In this document: positions 9,463-13,441 of the stretch, in pieces
Layout of the letters: each line of letters starts with the position of its first letter
Numbering within the stretch: the first letter of the stretch is position 1
IMG/VR virus record: IMGVR_UViG_2693429599_000004
DNA: 13,714 nt
Direction: 5' to 3' (one strand)
DNA from: a virus
Taxonomy: Duplodnaviria; Heunggongvirae; Uroviricota; Caudoviricetes
Program-made: the position numbers and the translations under genes
Notes under the pieces: generated by a model
The model's database searches: none
What the model saw: only the letters and a program-made list of their open reading frames with translations
What the model was told of the DNA's origin: nothing

Positions 9463-9678
9463 TTACTCTCCCCGCGCCGCCTTACGCCGGTCCTCTCTGA
9501 TTTTGAAATACAGGTTAGTCAGATATGTCAGCAGCCCAAACAGCAGACTCCCCAGCACGCCTATTGCCGCCCACTGAGACGGGGAAACCCTGTCCAGCAA
9601 CTGCAGGAACCAGTAGCCCGTTCCCACCGCTGACGTGGTGTATGACACACCTGTTGTGATTTTTTCCATCTGGTACAT
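9463..9678 (-). CDS. S: Pinholin S (phage 21 S21-like class II holin) with dual-start motif
   Basis: [71 protein letters not shown] matches S21 from memory; two ATGs three codons apart; GGGAGA SD. Upstream part of the track ORF (to 9783) rejected. Confidence 0.9.
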
Positions 9679-9827
9679 ACCCCGTCTCCCGTTATCCGGA
9701 AGCTGACAACAATAAAAAAGCCACCAGTTAAGTACTGATGGCTCTGATAACTCATGCAGGCATCTCAGACGACCCACTGACACTACCGGTGAGTTTAACG
9801 ATACCTTCCATTTGACTGGCTCACTTT

Positions 9828-11696
9828 TTATGATGATGCTGGTGCATTTATCTCCAGCACCAGACTTTCTATCTCAACGCCATACGCTGCATTTTTGGTA
9901 ATATCCGTCAGCGTCAGCGCATTCAGCCCCAGTGTCAGACTGTCTTTTATGACCTGGAATGCCGGGCCAGCCACTCCATTCAGTTTCGGAGTAACCGTGG
10001 CACTGCCGGCGGTGAACACCAGCTCCAGCGTCTGCCAGTCGTTACTGTAATTCCCGAACTCGCCCAACTTTGTGTTTCCTGCTTTCCTGTGATGCATCAG
10101 ATTCAGTTTGCCGTCTGTGGTCTGGGTGAAGAACGACATCAGGAACGGGTTACCAGTCCCGGTCATCGCCACGACGTCAGGTAACGCTACATCGGTATAC
10201 AGATAAATTCCCAGACCGAACTGGTTGTTGGTCAGTGCGCCTGACAGTCGAAACTTACAGCTCAGTCTGCCACCCCGTGTCAGCAGGGAGACTGCGTCAT
10301 CCACCGGGCGCGTCAGGGACCAGGCTTTATTGCTCTGCTTGGCGATCTTAAATACACCACCCGACAACTGAATTCCGCCGTCCTTAATGGTCCAGCCCTG
10401 CGCAGCAGCCTCTCCGGCTGTCGGCAGCAGGGAGATTGTGCGAACGGACGTATCTGCAGACGGACCCGATGGCGTGTCGCCGCCGGGCGAGGGTTTGATT
10501 TCCGGTGCCTTACCACTGATGAAGGCTGAGGTGCGCCCGGCTACGTTCAGAATAGCAGTTGCCATACGATCGGGAATAATGCCACGACGCGCCCATGAGC
10601 TGAAATGCGTCGGGCGATTTGATGATACCCAGTTTTTGTTCGTTCGGGATGCCGAACCGTAATAACCAGACCCGGCAATATCAGGATCTTCTGACGGGTT
10701 GTTTGTCGGTGTATTAACTCCGCTACCATCGGTCATAAAGGGAACAAAATAAATCTGCTGGGATTCTTTACCTTTATATGCACCATATACCACTTCATAT
10801 TGCGTACCGTGTTCTTGTTTCCACGCGTATGTCGTGTCGCCACAAATCCAGGGGACTGATGCCGGACTTCCACCGTGACACTGCGCTGCCAGCCCGGCAA
10901 GGTCAGCACGGAACTGCTGTACCATTGCAAGAAATGCTGCTGGCTGCTGGGCGTAACTGGCATTCGTCATATCGAATTCCCCCTGCATCCAGCATATCGC
11001 CAGCAAAACGTTTTTCGGGTTTTTCTGCAATGCTGCCTTCGTGCGGAAAAGCAGATCCTGATATAACGGCTTACCCACTCCCCAGCGAGCCGAATCCTGA
11101 CTGGCCCCCGTGGACTCGCTGAATGTCCCCTCCGTGCCCTGGGTGAATGCCGAACCACCACGACAGCATGGTACCAGCAGGATCCCCGCATTATTAGGGA
11201 TATACGGAAGCAGTTTTTTGGCAATATGTAAGCCCTGGCCGACACAGCCGTACTGCCCTTTGCTCAGGTCAGCCCGGGGATGGTTAATCGTACTCATATC
11301 CTGAACATCATGCAGACAATGGTCAGCAGGAATGATGTCGTTAAATACGCATACTTCACCACCGGGAGTCACTGTGTTACGACGGGCCAGTTGCTTAATG
11401 CGCGGATGGGGCGCATCGTATGAATCCGGAAGCGGAAGCCCTTCACCGTAAGCCATGGCATTGGACTGCCCGGCCAGTACGATGACGTAGTACCACTCCG
11501 GCTCAGTTGCACCACTGACGACCACATCACCTTCTGCTGCAATCGCCTGCATCAGGGTATAAGGGGTTATGGCCACCGGACTACCAAACGGCTGCCAGCC
11601 CTCTTTCAGTTTATGTGTCAGCTTTTCCGCAAGATCTGACGGCGACGCCGCCCTGACAACATCATAGTGTTTAAATGCCATGGTTCTTTCCACCAT
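9828..11696 (-). CDS. nanS: Prophage-encoded sialate O-acetylesterase NanS-p-like (N-terminal DUF1737-like region plus SASA/SGNH esterase domain)
   Basis: 622 aa; GQSN esterase motif ([18 protein letters not shown]). Position between the tRNA/cargo block and the holin, as in Stx phages. Likely true start is the second ATG at 11681 ([16 protein letters not shown]). Confidence 0.85.
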
Positions 11697-11874
11697 CTGA
11701 AAAATGATTCTTTAAAATACCTGACATGTAATACAGAAAAAACACAAAACCATACCTTAATTAAAAACCTCATCATCAAGCAGATATGCATGGATAAACT
11801 ACAAGACGAGATATAAACCACCCTGCATTTAAATAAACAATAAACAACATCAGAAAAATAATTCTGCTCTATGG

Positions 11875-11901
11875 TTTACAATCAAAAATATCATTTATAC
11901 T
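11875..11901 (+). promoter_or_regulatory. Candidate sigma70 promoter for the divergent 111-aa gene
   Basis: TTTACA (11875-11880), 15-bp spacer, TATACT (11896-11901), about 40 nt upstream of the ATG in an AT-rich intergenic region. Spacer is short; pattern match only. Confidence 0.25.
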
Positions 11902-11941
11902 TTTCAGAACATCACCAGCAAGGCATAAACAAGGAAACTAA

Positions 11942-12277
11942 ATGAAGTGGATTGTGATTGATACAGTTATCCAGCCATCATGCGGAATATCTTTTTCAGT
12001 CATATGGAGTAAAATAAAATTAATAATCTGGTATCAATCGGATGCTTTCTTACCTCCTGAAAGTATATTTACACTGACTCACACAGGCATCATGCTCAAT
12101 AACAAAGTGCTGCCTGTAACCATTTACAACGTAGTACCATTCAATAAAACATTCTGGAATTTAATCAAAAACAGCCAGGAATGCCCTACAAATACAGATA
12201 ACGTATTGAATGAATGCTTTAATAACCGTTGCACTCTGCAAATATGTCCTTATGGGCTAAAACAACAAAGTCCATAA
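11942..12277 (+). CDS. Hypothetical AT-rich, Cys-containing protein (111 aa), divergent from the late operon
   Basis: ATG with AAGGAAA SD; low-GC coding sequence; Cys-rich C-terminal half ([25 protein letters not shown]). No homolog recognised. Confidence 0.45.
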
Positions 12278-12300
12278 GGAGTTTACTCACATCTGACAAA

Positions 12301-12333
12301 ATCAATATAAACAGCCCCTCCGGAGAGGGGCTG
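12301..12333 (-). terminator. Rho-independent terminator (minus strand) inside the cargo region
   Basis: Minus strand CAGCCCCTC-TCCG-GAGGGGCTG (9-bp perfect GC-rich stem, 4-nt loop) followed by TTTATATTGATTTTGT. Confidence 0.65.
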
Positions 12334-12724
12334 GAGAGTGGCGCTATGTGCCATTGCATGGTGCCGGGTGCCTCCCGGTGAATTCAGTACCAGCACCTGA
12401 ATCCGCGATTATCCCATATACCTACTCGCTGATTGCCCCTCCGCACAGGGGGATTCACCATGCCAGTTTCTTTTAACAAACTCCCCGCAAACCAGACAAC
12501 AGTCAACCGCCTGAATTGTGAAGTATTTAAAAATTTCTCCCGCTAACTGATACCCGGCTAACAGTCTGGCGTTTTCTTTTTCAGCAACGGGAAAGCAGCA
12601 ACCACCACACCCGCCACCAGCACACCGTCAGCCAGCACTGACATTATCCGGCTGCTGCAATGCCATTCACAAAAACAGTAAGCAATCACTTTTTACCGTA
12701 ACCGGTGATAATCCAGATATGTAT

Positions 12725-13081
12725 CTACCCCAGATGAGTAATCCGAAGTTCATCCATACCACAGGTCCTGGCTATTCTGTTGTACTCCTGAACAAGAGCA
12801 AATAATTCTGAATTAGCCACCATGAACTCATCGCAAACCCTCTGTATAGCATCACTATTCAGAATAATAACGTCTCTTCCCGAAAGACGATCAGGAGTAC
12901 AGAACAAAACTGTCAAACGGCTGAAGGCCTTTGCTCGTTCTGCATTGACTATATCAATACGCTGCCTAAGGATGAAACACCCCGACGCCTCATCAATATT
13001 CACTCTACCCACACCATATGAATGATAAATATTTAATGCTGAAAAAACCATTAGACCGTATAACAAACACTCAATCAACAC
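12725..13081 (-). CDS. Hypothetical protein (up to 118 aa) at the position stxA occupies in Stx phages
   Basis: Track ORF starts at GTG 13081; first ATG at 13051 gives 108 aa; weak SD. Co-directional with the tRNAs and late genes. No homolog recognised. Confidence 0.4.
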   Translation of the reverse strand: MLIECLLYGLMVFSALNIYHSYGVGRVNIDEASGCFILRQRIDIVNAERAKAFSRLTVLFCTPDRLSGRDVIILNSDAIQRVCDEFMVANSELFALVQEYNRIARTCGMDELRITHLG

Positions 13082-13188
13082 TTAACAGAACTTTTATTTT
13101 TGACAAACATATAATATTTTCAACAATATCCTGAGCCAGGTATATTTCAGTATAAGGCTCTGCCGAAAGGAATCTGGAAGAATGAATA

Positions 13189-13265
13189 TGGCGCGCTGTA
13201 CTGGATTCGAACCAGTGACCGATTGCTTAGAAGGCAATTGCTCTGTCCGGCTGAGCTAACAACGC
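13189..13265 (-). tRNA. argO: tRNA-Arg (anticodon UCU), phage argO/argU-like
   Basis: 77-nt cloverleaf read by hand: acceptor GCGTTGT/ACAGCGC, D-arm TAGCTCAGCCGGACAGAGC, anticodon loop CTTCTAA, T-arm GGTTCGAATCC, encoded CCA. Resembles E. coli argU. Confidence 0.9.
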
Positions 13266-13365
13266 TGAATACCGATAATGGACCGCCATCGGGGACCCGC
13301 CCCCGCACCAACAACCCTGTTATCGTGTCGTCTGCTCTTCCTGATAAGCTAATGGCGGTTTGTGA

Positions 13366-13441
13366 TGGTGGCCCTTGCTGGATTTGAACCAGCGACCTGG
13401 CGATTATGAGTCGCTCGCTCTCACCACTGAGCTAAAGGGCC
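13366..13441 (-). tRNA. ileZ: tRNA-Ile2 (anticodon CAU, lysidine type; ileX/ileZ-like), formally tRNA-Met by anticodon
   Basis: 76-nt cloverleaf: GGCCCTT acceptor, GCTCAGTGGTGAGAGC D-arm, anticodon CAT at 34-36, GGTTCAAATCC T-arm, encoded CCA. Near-identical to E. coli ileX from memory. Confidence 0.88.

What the first reader, a model, noticed from the sequence alone, without database searches (positions are those of the whole stretch)
12280..12724. About 440 bp structured non-coding stretch with a strong minus-strand terminator; possible phage sRNA or micro-peptide locus
No ORF of 60 aa or more lies between the 111-aa and 118-aa genes. The region contains a perfect 9-bp GC-rich hairpin with a T-rich tail on the minus strand (12301-12333), further hairpins (for example CCGGGAGGCACCCGG near 12375-12389), and two 28-codon ORFs: minus strand 12558-12644 (MSVLADGVLVAGVVVAAFPLLKKKTPDC, hydrophobic) and plus strand 12460-12546. 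Transcription from the tRNA promoter or the late promoter would end at this terminator and yield a discrete RNA.
Basis: seen in the sequence. Interest (0 to 1): 0.45.

Follow-up and report, generated by a model that had tools for sequence, protein, structure and literature searches.

The report
Known prophage small RNA (STnc100) locus
The stretch holds a copy of STnc100, an already catalogued small regulatory RNA of lambda-like prophages, preceded by a small membrane-peptide gene of a known but uncharacterised family, so it is real but ordinary.

Summary
There is no ORF of 60 aa or more, the minus strand has a 9-bp GC-rich terminator hairpin at 12333-12312, there are further hairpins, and both 28-codon ORFs exist.

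The region is not anonymous. Window 12492-12303 (minus) matches Rfam RF02076 STnc100 at 132.4 bits (gathering score 47, E 1.5e-29). STnc100 is a multi-copy sRNA of lambdoid prophages. Relatives are EcOnc27/sRNA103 downstream of stx2B and PasD1/PasD2 in EPEC. These relatives were shown on Northern blots and found with Hfq.

The hydrophobic 28-codon ORF is the C-terminal part of a 43-aa ORF (12689-12558, minus). That ORF matches Pfam DUF3927 at 92.7 bits and is called TciB-like in PHROGs. The plus-strand ORF has no support.

Covariation in about 60 variants supports a closing helix and hairpin P2. P1 and P3 hardly vary, so they are uninformative. It also supports a pseudoknot that I did not find in the Rfam consensus line or the 2026 preprint.

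A conserved promoter-like block lies just upstream. Its predicted start, G12463, coincides with the RNA-seq start reported for PasD2. The RNA is therefore probably made from its own promoter, not from the tRNA or late promoter.

Verdict: already known, low interest.

The parts
12303..12492 (-). Full-length match to Rfam RF02076 STnc100, model positions 1-206
   Evidence: 132.4 bits against a gathering score of 47, E 1.5e-29.
12304..12463 (-). Predicted sRNA transcript of about 160 nt, from the inferred +1 at G12463 to the U-tract after the terminator
   Evidence: The +1 is inferred by homology to the RNA-seq start of PasD2 at NC_011601:741157, which is the G of GCATGGTG. MFE is -69.5 kcal/mol, z = -3.08. 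The 5' end is inferred, not mapped.
12464..12533 (-). Conserved upstream block with an inferred sigma-70 promoter: -35 TTGTCT at 12499-12494, and an extended -10 TGtTAAAAG at 12478-12470
   Evidence: Position-wise conservation in 48 distinct upstream sequences: TTG at -36 to -34, TT at -17/-16, T at -13, AAAA at -11 to -8. 44 of 69 variants carry the CACAATTCAG block. It is often directly preceded by an unrelated terminator. Homology with O157 copies ends at 12533. The tool's promoter scan did not list this site.
12356..12463 (-). Structured core. P0 closing helix 12463-12456 with 12363-12356. P1 hairpin 12451-12447 with 12440-12436. P2 hairpin 12404-12397 with 12387-12380. P3 hairpin 12378-12374 with 12368-12364
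   Evidence: The Rfam consensus and the MFE fold agree. On 32 variants, 83.4% of cells pair, against 40-48% when partners are slid. Covariation score is 0.191 against 0.132 in shuffles, 0 of 500 reaching it. P2 has 5 of 8 pairs changed on both sides and P0 has 2 of 8.
12389..12433 (-). Candidate pseudoknot: AUCAGC (12433-12428) pairs with GCUGGU in the P2 loop (12394-12389). The two strands enclose the hypervariable segment 12427-12405
   Evidence: 12 sequence classes carry different but complementary strands, 6-10 bp in 11 of them. Mean duplex energy is -9.13 kcal/mol, against -4.08 +/- 0.83 when partners are permuted, 0 of 20000. It also holds in PasD2 and, read by eye from the sequence, in the Sp5 copy.
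12334..12355 (-). 3' linker AAUGGCACAUAGCGCCACUCUC between core and terminator; candidate seed region
   Evidence: The position matches that of the predicted PasD seed UGUGAG (PMC8550237 Fig. S5). It also matches the EcOnc27 Northern probe site. The seed role here is inference only.
12297..12333 (-). Intrinsic terminator: 9-bp stem, TCCG loop, tail UUUAUAUUGAUUUUG
   Evidence: The same CCCCTCTCCGGAGGGG hairpin ends most variants.
12558..12689 (-).
   Evidence: Pfam PF13064 at 92.7 bits, cut-off 25. PHROG 1470 matches residues 12-40 only. RefSeq annotates the identical sequence as WP_001438304.1. A DUF3927-like ORF precedes 61 of 133 STnc100 copies.
12460..12546 (+). Plus-strand 28-codon ORF; probably not a gene
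   Evidence: No Pfam or NCBIfam match. It lies antisense to the sRNA's 5' end and inferred promoter. RefSeq marks an overlapping frame (12348-12473) as an incomplete pseudogene.

Best explanation
The stretch holds two adjacent genes on the minus strand of a lambdoid prophage late region. They lie between the Q/tRNA segment and the esterase and lysis genes.

**Gene 1: an STnc100-family small RNA.** It is most likely transcribed from its own constitutive sigma-70-type promoter (-35 at 12499-12494, extended -10 at 12478-12470). It would start near G12463 and end at the intrinsic terminator 12333-12312, giving an RNA of about 160 nt.

The 5' 108 nt fold into a compact domain: a closing helix, three hairpins and probably a loop-to-junction pseudoknot. 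This domain would protect the RNA and present it. The 3' linker plus terminator tail is the likely Hfq-binding and target-pairing part.

By analogy with EcOnc27/sRNA103 and PasD1/PasD2, it would act in trans by base-pairing with host and prophage mRNAs while the phage is a lysogen.

**Gene 2: a 43-aa DUF3927 (TciB-like) membrane peptide ORF.** Its N-terminal part departs from the family consensus, and its translation here is uncertain.

**What is shown and what is inferred.**
- Shown here: family membership, the fold with its covariation, synteny, and wide distribution.
- Taken from the literature on homologues: expression and Hfq association.
- Inferred: the promoter, the +1, the seed position and the trans-acting mechanism for this copy.
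For: **Family membership and fold**
- Rfam STnc100 match at 132.4 bits against 47.
- The fold is more stable than shuffles, z = -3.08.
- Nested helices are supported on 32 variants: 83.4% paired against 40-48% when slid, covariation 0 of 500 shuffles.
- The pseudoknot strands covary in 12 classes, 0 of 20000 permutations.

**Promoter**
- The conserved promoter-like block predicts a +1 that equals the PasD2 RNA-seq start.
- In many relatives the block follows an upstream terminator, so transcription has to restart there.

**Context and distribution**
- Synteny is Q, tRNAs, (moron), STnc100, SASA esterase, holin. It is seen in the window, FORC_069, E2348/69, O157 WS4202 and VT2-Sakai.
- The sequence occurs in 2860 of 5426 complete E. 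coli genomes, with up to 12 places per genome.

**Literature on homologues**
- EDL933 has 11 copies, with RNA-seq reads for all 11, and one (STnc100_4) was confirmed by Northern blot (PMC5331693).
- EcOnc27 has an Hfq-CRAC peak, and its 247-nt Northern species is listed as 'destabilised', which I read as in the hfq mutant (PMC4104026 supplement).
- PasD1/PasD2 are Hfq-dependent and have many RIL-seq partners (PMC8550237).

**Peptide ORF**
- DUF3927 match.
Against: - No transcript data exist for this window, so the 5' end is inferred.
- The Northern sizes for EcOnc27 (about 235 and 247 nt) exceed the 175 nt that my +1 predicts for that copy. The start may therefore lie 45-70 nt further upstream, or the RNA may be 3'-extended.
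- The inferred -10 (TAAAAG) lacks the usual final T, and the tool's promoter scan did not list it.
- The U-tract here is interrupted (UUUAUAUU). This may weaken both termination and Hfq binding.
- No target of canonical STnc100 has been shown to pair directly. fimZ/espA effects come from overexpression only (PMC7873438).
- The pseudoknot and P2 could be alternative structures rather than forming together.
- The DUF3927 ORF has no evident Shine-Dalgarno sequence, and its N-terminus is divergent.
Confidence: 0.8

Rival explanations
1. The RNA is not an independent gene. It is a 3' product, by processing or termination, of a longer transcript from the late promoter, the tRNA cluster or the DUF3927 mRNA.
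For: - The sRNA has the same orientation as the late operon and the DUF3927 ORF, which ends only 65-95 nt upstream.
- EcOnc27 Northern species (about 235 and 247 nt) are longer than the promoter model predicts.
- The inferred -10 is imperfect, and the scan did not list it.
Against: - The upstream context varies freely: stx2B, tRNA-Arg, DUF3927, another STnc100 copy, or an intrinsic terminator directly in front of the conserved block. The block itself is kept.
- In a lysogen the late promoter transcript stops at tR' without Q (established lambda biology). Yet homologues are abundant in uninduced cultures (PMC5331693, PMC8550237).
- The PasD2 coverage start falls exactly where the promoter model predicts.
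Confidence: 0.15
2. The conserved structured core is mainly a cis-acting or DNA-level element. It could be a moron boundary or recombination linker, a transcription insulator-terminator unit, or a leader acting on downstream esterase and lysis genes. It would not be a trans-acting riboregulator.
For: - Recombination breakpoints fall right at the edges of the conserved boxes. Different internal cassettes and different 3' tails are joined to the same P0, P1 and P3 sequences.
- P1 and P3 are nearly invariant in sequence, which covariation cannot distinguish from DNA-level conservation.
- The mEp460 copy has no terminator within 330 nt and runs into the next gene.
Against: - P0, P2 and the pseudoknot show compensatory changes, which argues for selection on RNA pairing.
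- Homologues accumulate as discrete RNAs that bind Hfq and form chimeras with many mRNAs (PMC4104026, PMC8550237).
- Most copies end in a terminator.
Confidence: 0.08
3. The functional unit is the micro-peptide. DUF3927 would be a small membrane toxin or effector, and the downstream RNA would be its 3' UTR or a type I antitoxin-like partner.
For: - The ORF matches a conserved family (92.7 bits).
- The peptide is hydrophobic with a KKK tail.
- A DUF3927-like ORF lies 40-110 nt upstream of 61 of 133 STnc100 copies.
- PHROGs files the family under host takeover.
Against: - More than half of STnc100 copies have no DUF3927 neighbour, including those after stx2B and after tRNA-Arg.
- The sRNA is co-directional with the ORF and does not overlap it, unlike the cis-antisense arrangement of hok/sok-type loci.
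- The window's ORF lacks the family's N-terminal segment and a clear ribosome-binding site.
- No function for DUF3927 was found in the literature.
Confidence: 0.05
4. This particular copy is a decaying, non-functional relic of the family inside a defective prophage.
For: - The U-tract is interrupted.
- The DUF3927 ORF is N-terminally divergent.
- The convergent anti-sRNA found in Sp5 is absent here.
Against: - The sRNA scores full length, 1-206, with all helices intact.
- The 445-bp stretch is at least 99% identical in 1225 E. coli records.
- It is 100% identical over 198 nt to phage Nil3.
Confidence: 0.05

Closest known systems
STnc100 (Rfam RF02076), also called EcOnc27 or sRNA103, downstream of stx2B in Stx2 phages
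   Same: - Full-length covariance-model match.
- Same core fold, same promoter-like block, and same position between the Q/tRNA segment and the esterase and lysis genes.
- Same CCCCTCTCCGGAGGGG-type terminator as most variants.
   Different: - The internal cassette and 3' linker differ. VT2-Sakai is only about 72% identical over the core and scores 207.7 bits against 132.4 here.
- Sp5 has a convergent AsxR anti-sRNA. This window has iraM at that position and no AsxR or AgvB match.
- The upstream neighbour here is DUF3927, not stx2B.
PasD1/PasD2 of EPEC E2348/69 (EcOnc13 in Sakai)
   Same: - Same synteny: DUF3927, then sRNA, then SASA esterase.
- Same closing helix, P1, P2 and pseudoknot logic, and same promoter geometry.
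- A 2026 preprint proposes common ancestry with STnc100.
   Different: - PasD2 scores only 41.4 bits on the STnc100 model, below the gathering score.
- P3 is reduced in PasD2.
- The PasD 3' tail, with its predicted UGUGAG seed and GGCUGCGC terminator, is absent from the window's sRNA.
Convergent Hfq-binding sRNA dyads of EHEC lambdoid prophages (AsxR/AgvB anti-sRNAs with a partner; Tree et al. 2014)
   Same: Same moron site between the late promoter and the lysis genes, and the same sense-strand partner family.
   Different: The window has no anti-sRNA partner. The convergent element is a protein gene, iraM.
DUF3927 (Pfam PF13064), PHROG 1470 'TciB-like'
   Same: The C-terminal transmembrane segment and KKK tail match strongly. 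RefSeq gives it the same name.
   Different: It is 43 aa, against 52-54 aa in JLK-2012 and E2348/69. The first hydrophobic segment is replaced by VIAYCFCEWHC. No tciA gene lies upstream; instead there is a PHROG 2873 ORF.
StxS and lambda 6S RNA (short pR'-tR' transcripts)
   Same: Both are phage late-region sRNAs ending at an intrinsic terminator.
   Different: Those arise at pR' immediately after Q. This locus lies downstream of the tRNAs and a moron gene, and it carries its own conserved promoter-like block.

Membership tests
Rfam RF02076 STnc100 | Covariance-model score at or above the curated gathering score (47 bits), full-length | tested here: met
   132.4 bits, E 1.5e-29, model positions 1-206, not truncated.
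Rfam RF02076 STnc100 | Consensus fold: long-range closing helix around three hairpins, then a terminator hairpin | tested here: met
   The MFE fold reproduces it. On 32 variants, 83.4% of cells pair, against 40-48% when slid. P0 and P2 have compensatory changes. P1 and P3 hardly vary, so they are uninformative. P1 was also part of my search pattern.
Rfam RF02076 STnc100 | Location in a lambdoid prophage late region between Q/tRNAs and lysis genes | tested here: met
   tRNAs at 13189-13441. SASA esterase at 9828-11696. Holin and antiterminator Q in the matching FORC_069 locus (100% identity was tested only for 12280-12724).
Rfam RF02076 STnc100 | Accumulates as a discrete, Hfq-associated RNA | not testable with these tools
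   Known only for homologues: PMC5331693 (Northern of STnc100_4), the PMC4104026 supplement (Hfq-CRAC and Northern of EcOnc27), and PMC8550237 (PasD).
PasD1/PasD2 sRNAs | PasD-type 3' tail with predicted UGUGAG seed and GGCUGCGC...GCGCAGCC terminator | tested here: not met
   The window's tail is AAUGGCACAUAGCGCCACUCUC plus a CAGCCCCUC hairpin. PasD2 scores 41.4 bits on the STnc100 model, against 132.4 here.
Pfam PF13064 DUF3927 / PHROG 1470 TciB-like | HMM score above the curated cut-off | tested here: met
   92.7 bits against 25. PHROG 1470 E-value 1.5e-11.
Pfam PF13064 DUF3927 / PHROG 1470 TciB-like | Full-length protein of about 52-54 aa including the N-terminal hydrophobic segment | tested here: not met
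   The ORF is 43 aa. PHROG aligns residues 12-40 only. The N-terminus VIAYCFCEWHC differs from MRLAVVALLLFLVVMVDF of JLK-2012.
Anti-sRNA dyad (AsxR RF02703 / AgvB RF02702 convergent with STnc100) | A convergent anti-sRNA gene abutting the STnc100 terminator | tested here: not met
   No match up to E = 1 in 11800-13200. The same search finds AsxR at 88.1 bits in VT2-Sakai.
Type I toxin-antitoxin | Antitoxin RNA antisense to, or complementary with, the toxin mRNA, and obligate linkage of the two | tested here: inconclusive
   The sRNA is co-directional with the ORF and does not overlap it. Only 61 of 133 copies have a DUF3927 neighbour. Complementarity in trans was not computed.
IpeX sRNA region of DLP12 (nmpC locus) | Homology of the equivalent K-12 late-region locus to STnc100 | tested here: not met
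   No STnc100 match in MG1655 573000-583000 at the gathering score.

The most novel reading that the evidence does not exclude
The STnc100/PasD family may be a modular RNA. In this reading, invariant boxes (P0, P1, P3) frame an exchangeable cassette. The cassette carries its own self-complementary pseudoknot strands, a hypervariable single-stranded segment, and an exchangeable 3' seed-terminator tail. Prophages would then diversify regulatory specificity by swapping cassettes through recombination in the invariant boxes. The loop-to-junction pseudoknot is absent from the Rfam consensus structure line and is not mentioned in the 2026 preprint on this family. It would define a compact 5' domain whose role is still unknown: RNase protection, a protein-binding platform, or presentation of the variable segment.
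Probability: 0.45. Interest if true: 0.45.

Novelty: already known. Interest (0 to 1): 0.2.

Why it matters
The locus itself adds nothing new. It is one more copy of an sRNA family found in about half of complete E. coli genomes. That family is already linked in the literature to Shiga-toxin phages, Hfq regulation and virulence-gene networks.

Three side results could help people working on the family:
- A candidate pseudoknot with strong covariation.
- A conserved promoter geometry that predicts the 5' end.
- The cassette-like mosaic of the RNA.

Published SNPs near stx2B associated with haemolytic uraemic syndrome appear to fall in or next to this inferred promoter in the Sp5 copy. If so, they would change sRNA level rather than sRNA sequence.

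Tried and rejected
1. **Genome-collection scan.** An exact 14-mer scan (ATGGTGAATCCCCC) returned almost only chance hits in unrelated phyla. Only two of these loci were shown to carry STnc100-like copies: Atlantibacter (L060) and the unidentified L241. A 21-base pattern on viral contigs worked instead.
2. **IpeX of DLP12.** I tested it as a possible characterised homologue. The K-12 late region has no STnc100 match.
3. **PasA/PasC.** I looked for a homologue between the esterase and the holin. There is no BLAST or probe match.
4. **AsxR/AgvB anti-sRNA partner.** None is present in the window.
5. **tRNA-like or tmRNA-like reading of the four-way junction.** ARAGORN finds nothing there. The resemblance is topological only.
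6. **Column-based count of the pseudoknot.** On MAFFT alignment A1 only 54% of cells pair, because the 5' strand shifts register by 1-2 nt between classes. I replaced it with a per-sequence duplex test and a class-level permutation.
7. **Terminator-less variants suggesting a leader function.** For JLK-2012 this was an artefact of my 210-nt cut. A PasD-type terminator follows at +168. Only mEp460-type copies lack a terminator.
8. **Alternative promoters.** CACAAT as -10, or TTGACT (12506-12501) as -35, give no acceptable partner hexamer at 16-18 nt.
9. **An ORF inside the sRNA.** The 46-aa frame 12359-12219 would have to read through the terminator. I judged it not to be conserved, because the linker it starts in differs between variants. 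This was not tested directly.

Full report
**Context.** The window is the late region of a lambdoid E. coli prophage, with its genes on the minus strand. In order they are:
- a DNA methyltransferase fragment;
- tRNA-Met(CAT) at 13441-13366 and tRNA-Arg(TCT) at 13265-13189;
- a 118-aa ORF at 13081-12725;
- the stretch in question;
- a convergent plus-strand iraM-like gene at 11942-12277 (NCBIfam PRK09919, 162 bits);
- a SASA-family esterase at 11696-9828, followed by the lysis genes.

The 445-bp stretch is 100% identical in E. coli FORC_069. It matches 2860 of 5426 complete E. coli genomes, with up to 12 places per genome.

**Observation.**
- No ORF of 60 aa or more lies in the gap.
- The terminator hairpin is at 12333-12312, with a T-rich tail.
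- The CCGGGAGGCACCCGG hairpin exists, at 12378-12364, about 11 bases from the stated position.
- Both 28-codon ORFs are there.

**What it is.** Rfam places 12492-12303 (minus) in family RF02076 STnc100 at 132.4 bits, against a gathering score of 47, over the full model. No other Rfam family matches up to E = 1 in 11800-13200.

STnc100 is a multi-copy prophage sRNA.
- EDL933 has 11 copies, with RNA-seq reads for all 11, and one was confirmed by Northern blot (PMC5331693).
- The copy downstream of stx2B is EcOnc27/sRNA103. It has an Hfq-CRAC peak and Northern species of about 235 and 247 nt (PMC4104026 supplement; PMC7873438; PMC12711010).
- A 2026 preprint relates STnc100 to the Hfq-dependent EPEC sRNAs PasD1/PasD2.

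I confirmed the links directly.
- VT2-Sakai carries STnc100 (207.7 bits) 75 nt after stx2B, with a convergent AsxR.
- E2348/69 PasD2 lies between a DUF3927 gene and the esterase. It scores 41.4 bits on the STnc100 model.

The window's copy is therefore a canonical STnc100, not a PasD.

**The small ORF.**
- It matches Pfam DUF3927 at 92.7 bits and PHROG 1470, 'TciB-like'.
- RefSeq annotates the identical sequence as a DUF3927 family protein.
- Full-length relatives have 52-54 aa.
- Here the N-terminal hydrophobic segment is replaced, and PHROG aligns residues 12-40 only.
- No clear ribosome-binding site precedes either the GTG or the internal ATG.
- I found no functional literature on the family.
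- A DUF3927-like ORF lies 40-110 nt upstream of 61 of 133 STnc100 copies in the loci I collected. The pairing is common but not obligatory.

The plus-strand ORF at 12460-12546 has no family match and lies antisense to the sRNA's 5' end.

**Structure.** A 21-base pattern scan of viral contigs gave 120 loci. Together with loci fetched earlier, they hold 84 distinct variants, of which 60 have distinct cores.

I aligned 32 representative cores with the variable middle removed. The results were as follows:

| Measure | Observed | Control |
|---|---|---|
| Cells forming a standard pair | 83.4% | 40-48% with partners slid |
| Covariation score | 0.191 | 0.132 in shuffles, 0 of 500 reaching it |

- P2 has 5 of 8 pairs changed on both sides, and the closing helix P0 has 2 of 8.
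- P1 and P3 are almost invariant, so they say nothing either way. P1 was also part of my search pattern.

The predicted 160-nt RNA folds at -69.5 kcal/mol, with z = -3.08.

**Candidate pseudoknot.** The six bases after P1 (AUCAGC, 12433-12428) are complementary to the P2 loop (GCUGGU, 12394-12389).

Across variants these two strands change together. Examples are CUGGUG/CACCGG, AAUGAC/GUCAUU, ACUGGAUA/UAUCCAGU, UUCCAGCAG/UUGCUGGAG and UAUCAGUAC/GUACUGAUA. In PasD2 the pair is AAUGAUC/GAUCAUU, and in the Sp5 copy it is CUGGUG/UACCAG.

With one representative for each of 12 classes, the mean duplex energy is -9.13 kcal/mol. With partners permuted it is -4.08 +/- 0.83, and 0 of 20000 permutations reach the observed value.

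There are exceptions and caveats.
- One class (u2/u66) lacks the pairing.
- One class (u7/u19) has it as a simple nested hairpin without P2.
- Neither the Rfam consensus line nor the 2026 preprint mentions the pairing.
- I cannot tell whether it forms together with P2 or alternates with it.

**Mosaic layout.** Between the two pseudoknot strands lies a hypervariable segment of about 20-45 nt. The 3' tails also come in several interchangeable types. The RNA therefore looks like a mosaic of cassettes framed by invariant boxes.

**Origin of the transcript.** A block of about 70 nt upstream (12533-12464) is conserved in most variants, whatever lies further upstream. That can be stx2B, tRNA-Arg, DUF3927, another STnc100 copy, or an intrinsic terminator directly in front.

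Within the block, position-wise conservation picks out the following:
- TTG at -36 to -34;
- TT at -17/-16;
- T at -13;
- AAAA at -11 to -8.

This fits a -35 TTGTCT, an 18-nt spacer and an extended -10 TGtTAAAAG. The predicted +1 is the G of GCAUGG, at 12463. That is exactly the 5' end estimated for PasD2 from RNA-seq coverage (NC_011601:741157).

Three caveats remain.
- The -10 lacks the final T, and the tool's scan did not list it.
- The EcOnc27 Northern sizes exceed the 175 nt predicted for that copy.
- Nothing was mapped for this allele.

**Mechanism.** By homology, the most likely function is an Hfq-associated, trans-acting base-pairing sRNA expressed from the lysogen.
- The structured 5' domain would act as a stabilising scaffold.
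- The 3' linker (12355-12334) plus the terminator tail would be the Hfq-binding and seed region. This is where PasD's predicted seed and the inferred EcOnc27 Hfq-CRAC peak lie. I placed that peak on the VT2-Sakai sequence using stx2B coordinates recalled from memory, so its position is approximate.
- Direct targets of canonical STnc100 are unknown.

**Verdict.** Interest is low. The pseudoknot, the promoter geometry and the cassette architecture are modest additions that would need experiments.

Noticed in passing
window 12725-13081 (-): The 118-aa ORF matches PHROG 2873 (unknown function) at 235 bits over residues 11-118. The real product is therefore probably about 108 aa. RefSeq's annotation of the matching FORC_069 locus lists no gene there; sequence identity with FORC_069 was tested only for 12280-12724.
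   Followed up: partly
window 11942-12277 (+), with flanks 11650-12250: An iraM-like anti-adapter gene (NCBIfam PRK09919, 162 bits) sits in a 30-36% GC island. It is convergent with the late operon and ends 35 nt before the sRNA terminator hairpin. This is the position where phage Sp5 carries the anti-sRNA AsxR. Read-through of iraM would be antisense to the sRNA's 3' end.
   Followed up: partly
window 12348-12473 (+): RefSeq (PGAP) annotates an incomplete pseudogene, 'hypothetical protein', on the strand opposite the STnc100 core in the FORC_069 and O157 WS4202 loci. This is probably an annotation artefact caused by the unannotated sRNA.
   Followed up: partly
window 9678-9827 (-): The esterase-holin intergenic region ends in a terminator-like hairpin (GCCATCAG...CTGGTGGC followed by TTTTTT). 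EPEC carries PasA/PasC at this position. There is no sequence similarity to PasA here, so the region may hold a different short RNA or only the esterase terminator.
   Followed up: partly
window 13266-13365: A 100-nt spacer lies between the two tRNA genes. In FORC_069, the matching locus has a second tRNA-Arg at the corresponding position. Neither ARAGORN nor Rfam finds a tRNA in this spacer.
   Followed up: no
L003 (two cores, about 467 nt apart); L129 (three cores within about 500 nt): Some prophages carry tandem arrays of two or three STnc100 paralogues, each with a different internal cassette.
   Followed up: partly
L248 (VT2-Sakai), about 1501-1517: Published SNPs at +90 and +103 after stx2B predict haemolytic uraemic syndrome (PMC12711010). 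They appear to fall in or next to the extended -10 and discriminator of the promoter I infer for the Sp5 STnc100 copy. They would then change sRNA level rather than sRNA sequence. The numbering could not be matched to the base.
   Followed up: partly
L001 (phage JLK-2012), sRNA +108 to +195: This is a chimeric copy. It has an STnc100-type core joined to a PasD-like 3' tail, with a GGCTGCGC...GCGTGGCC terminator followed by eight T. It shows that cores and tails recombine.
   Followed up: partly
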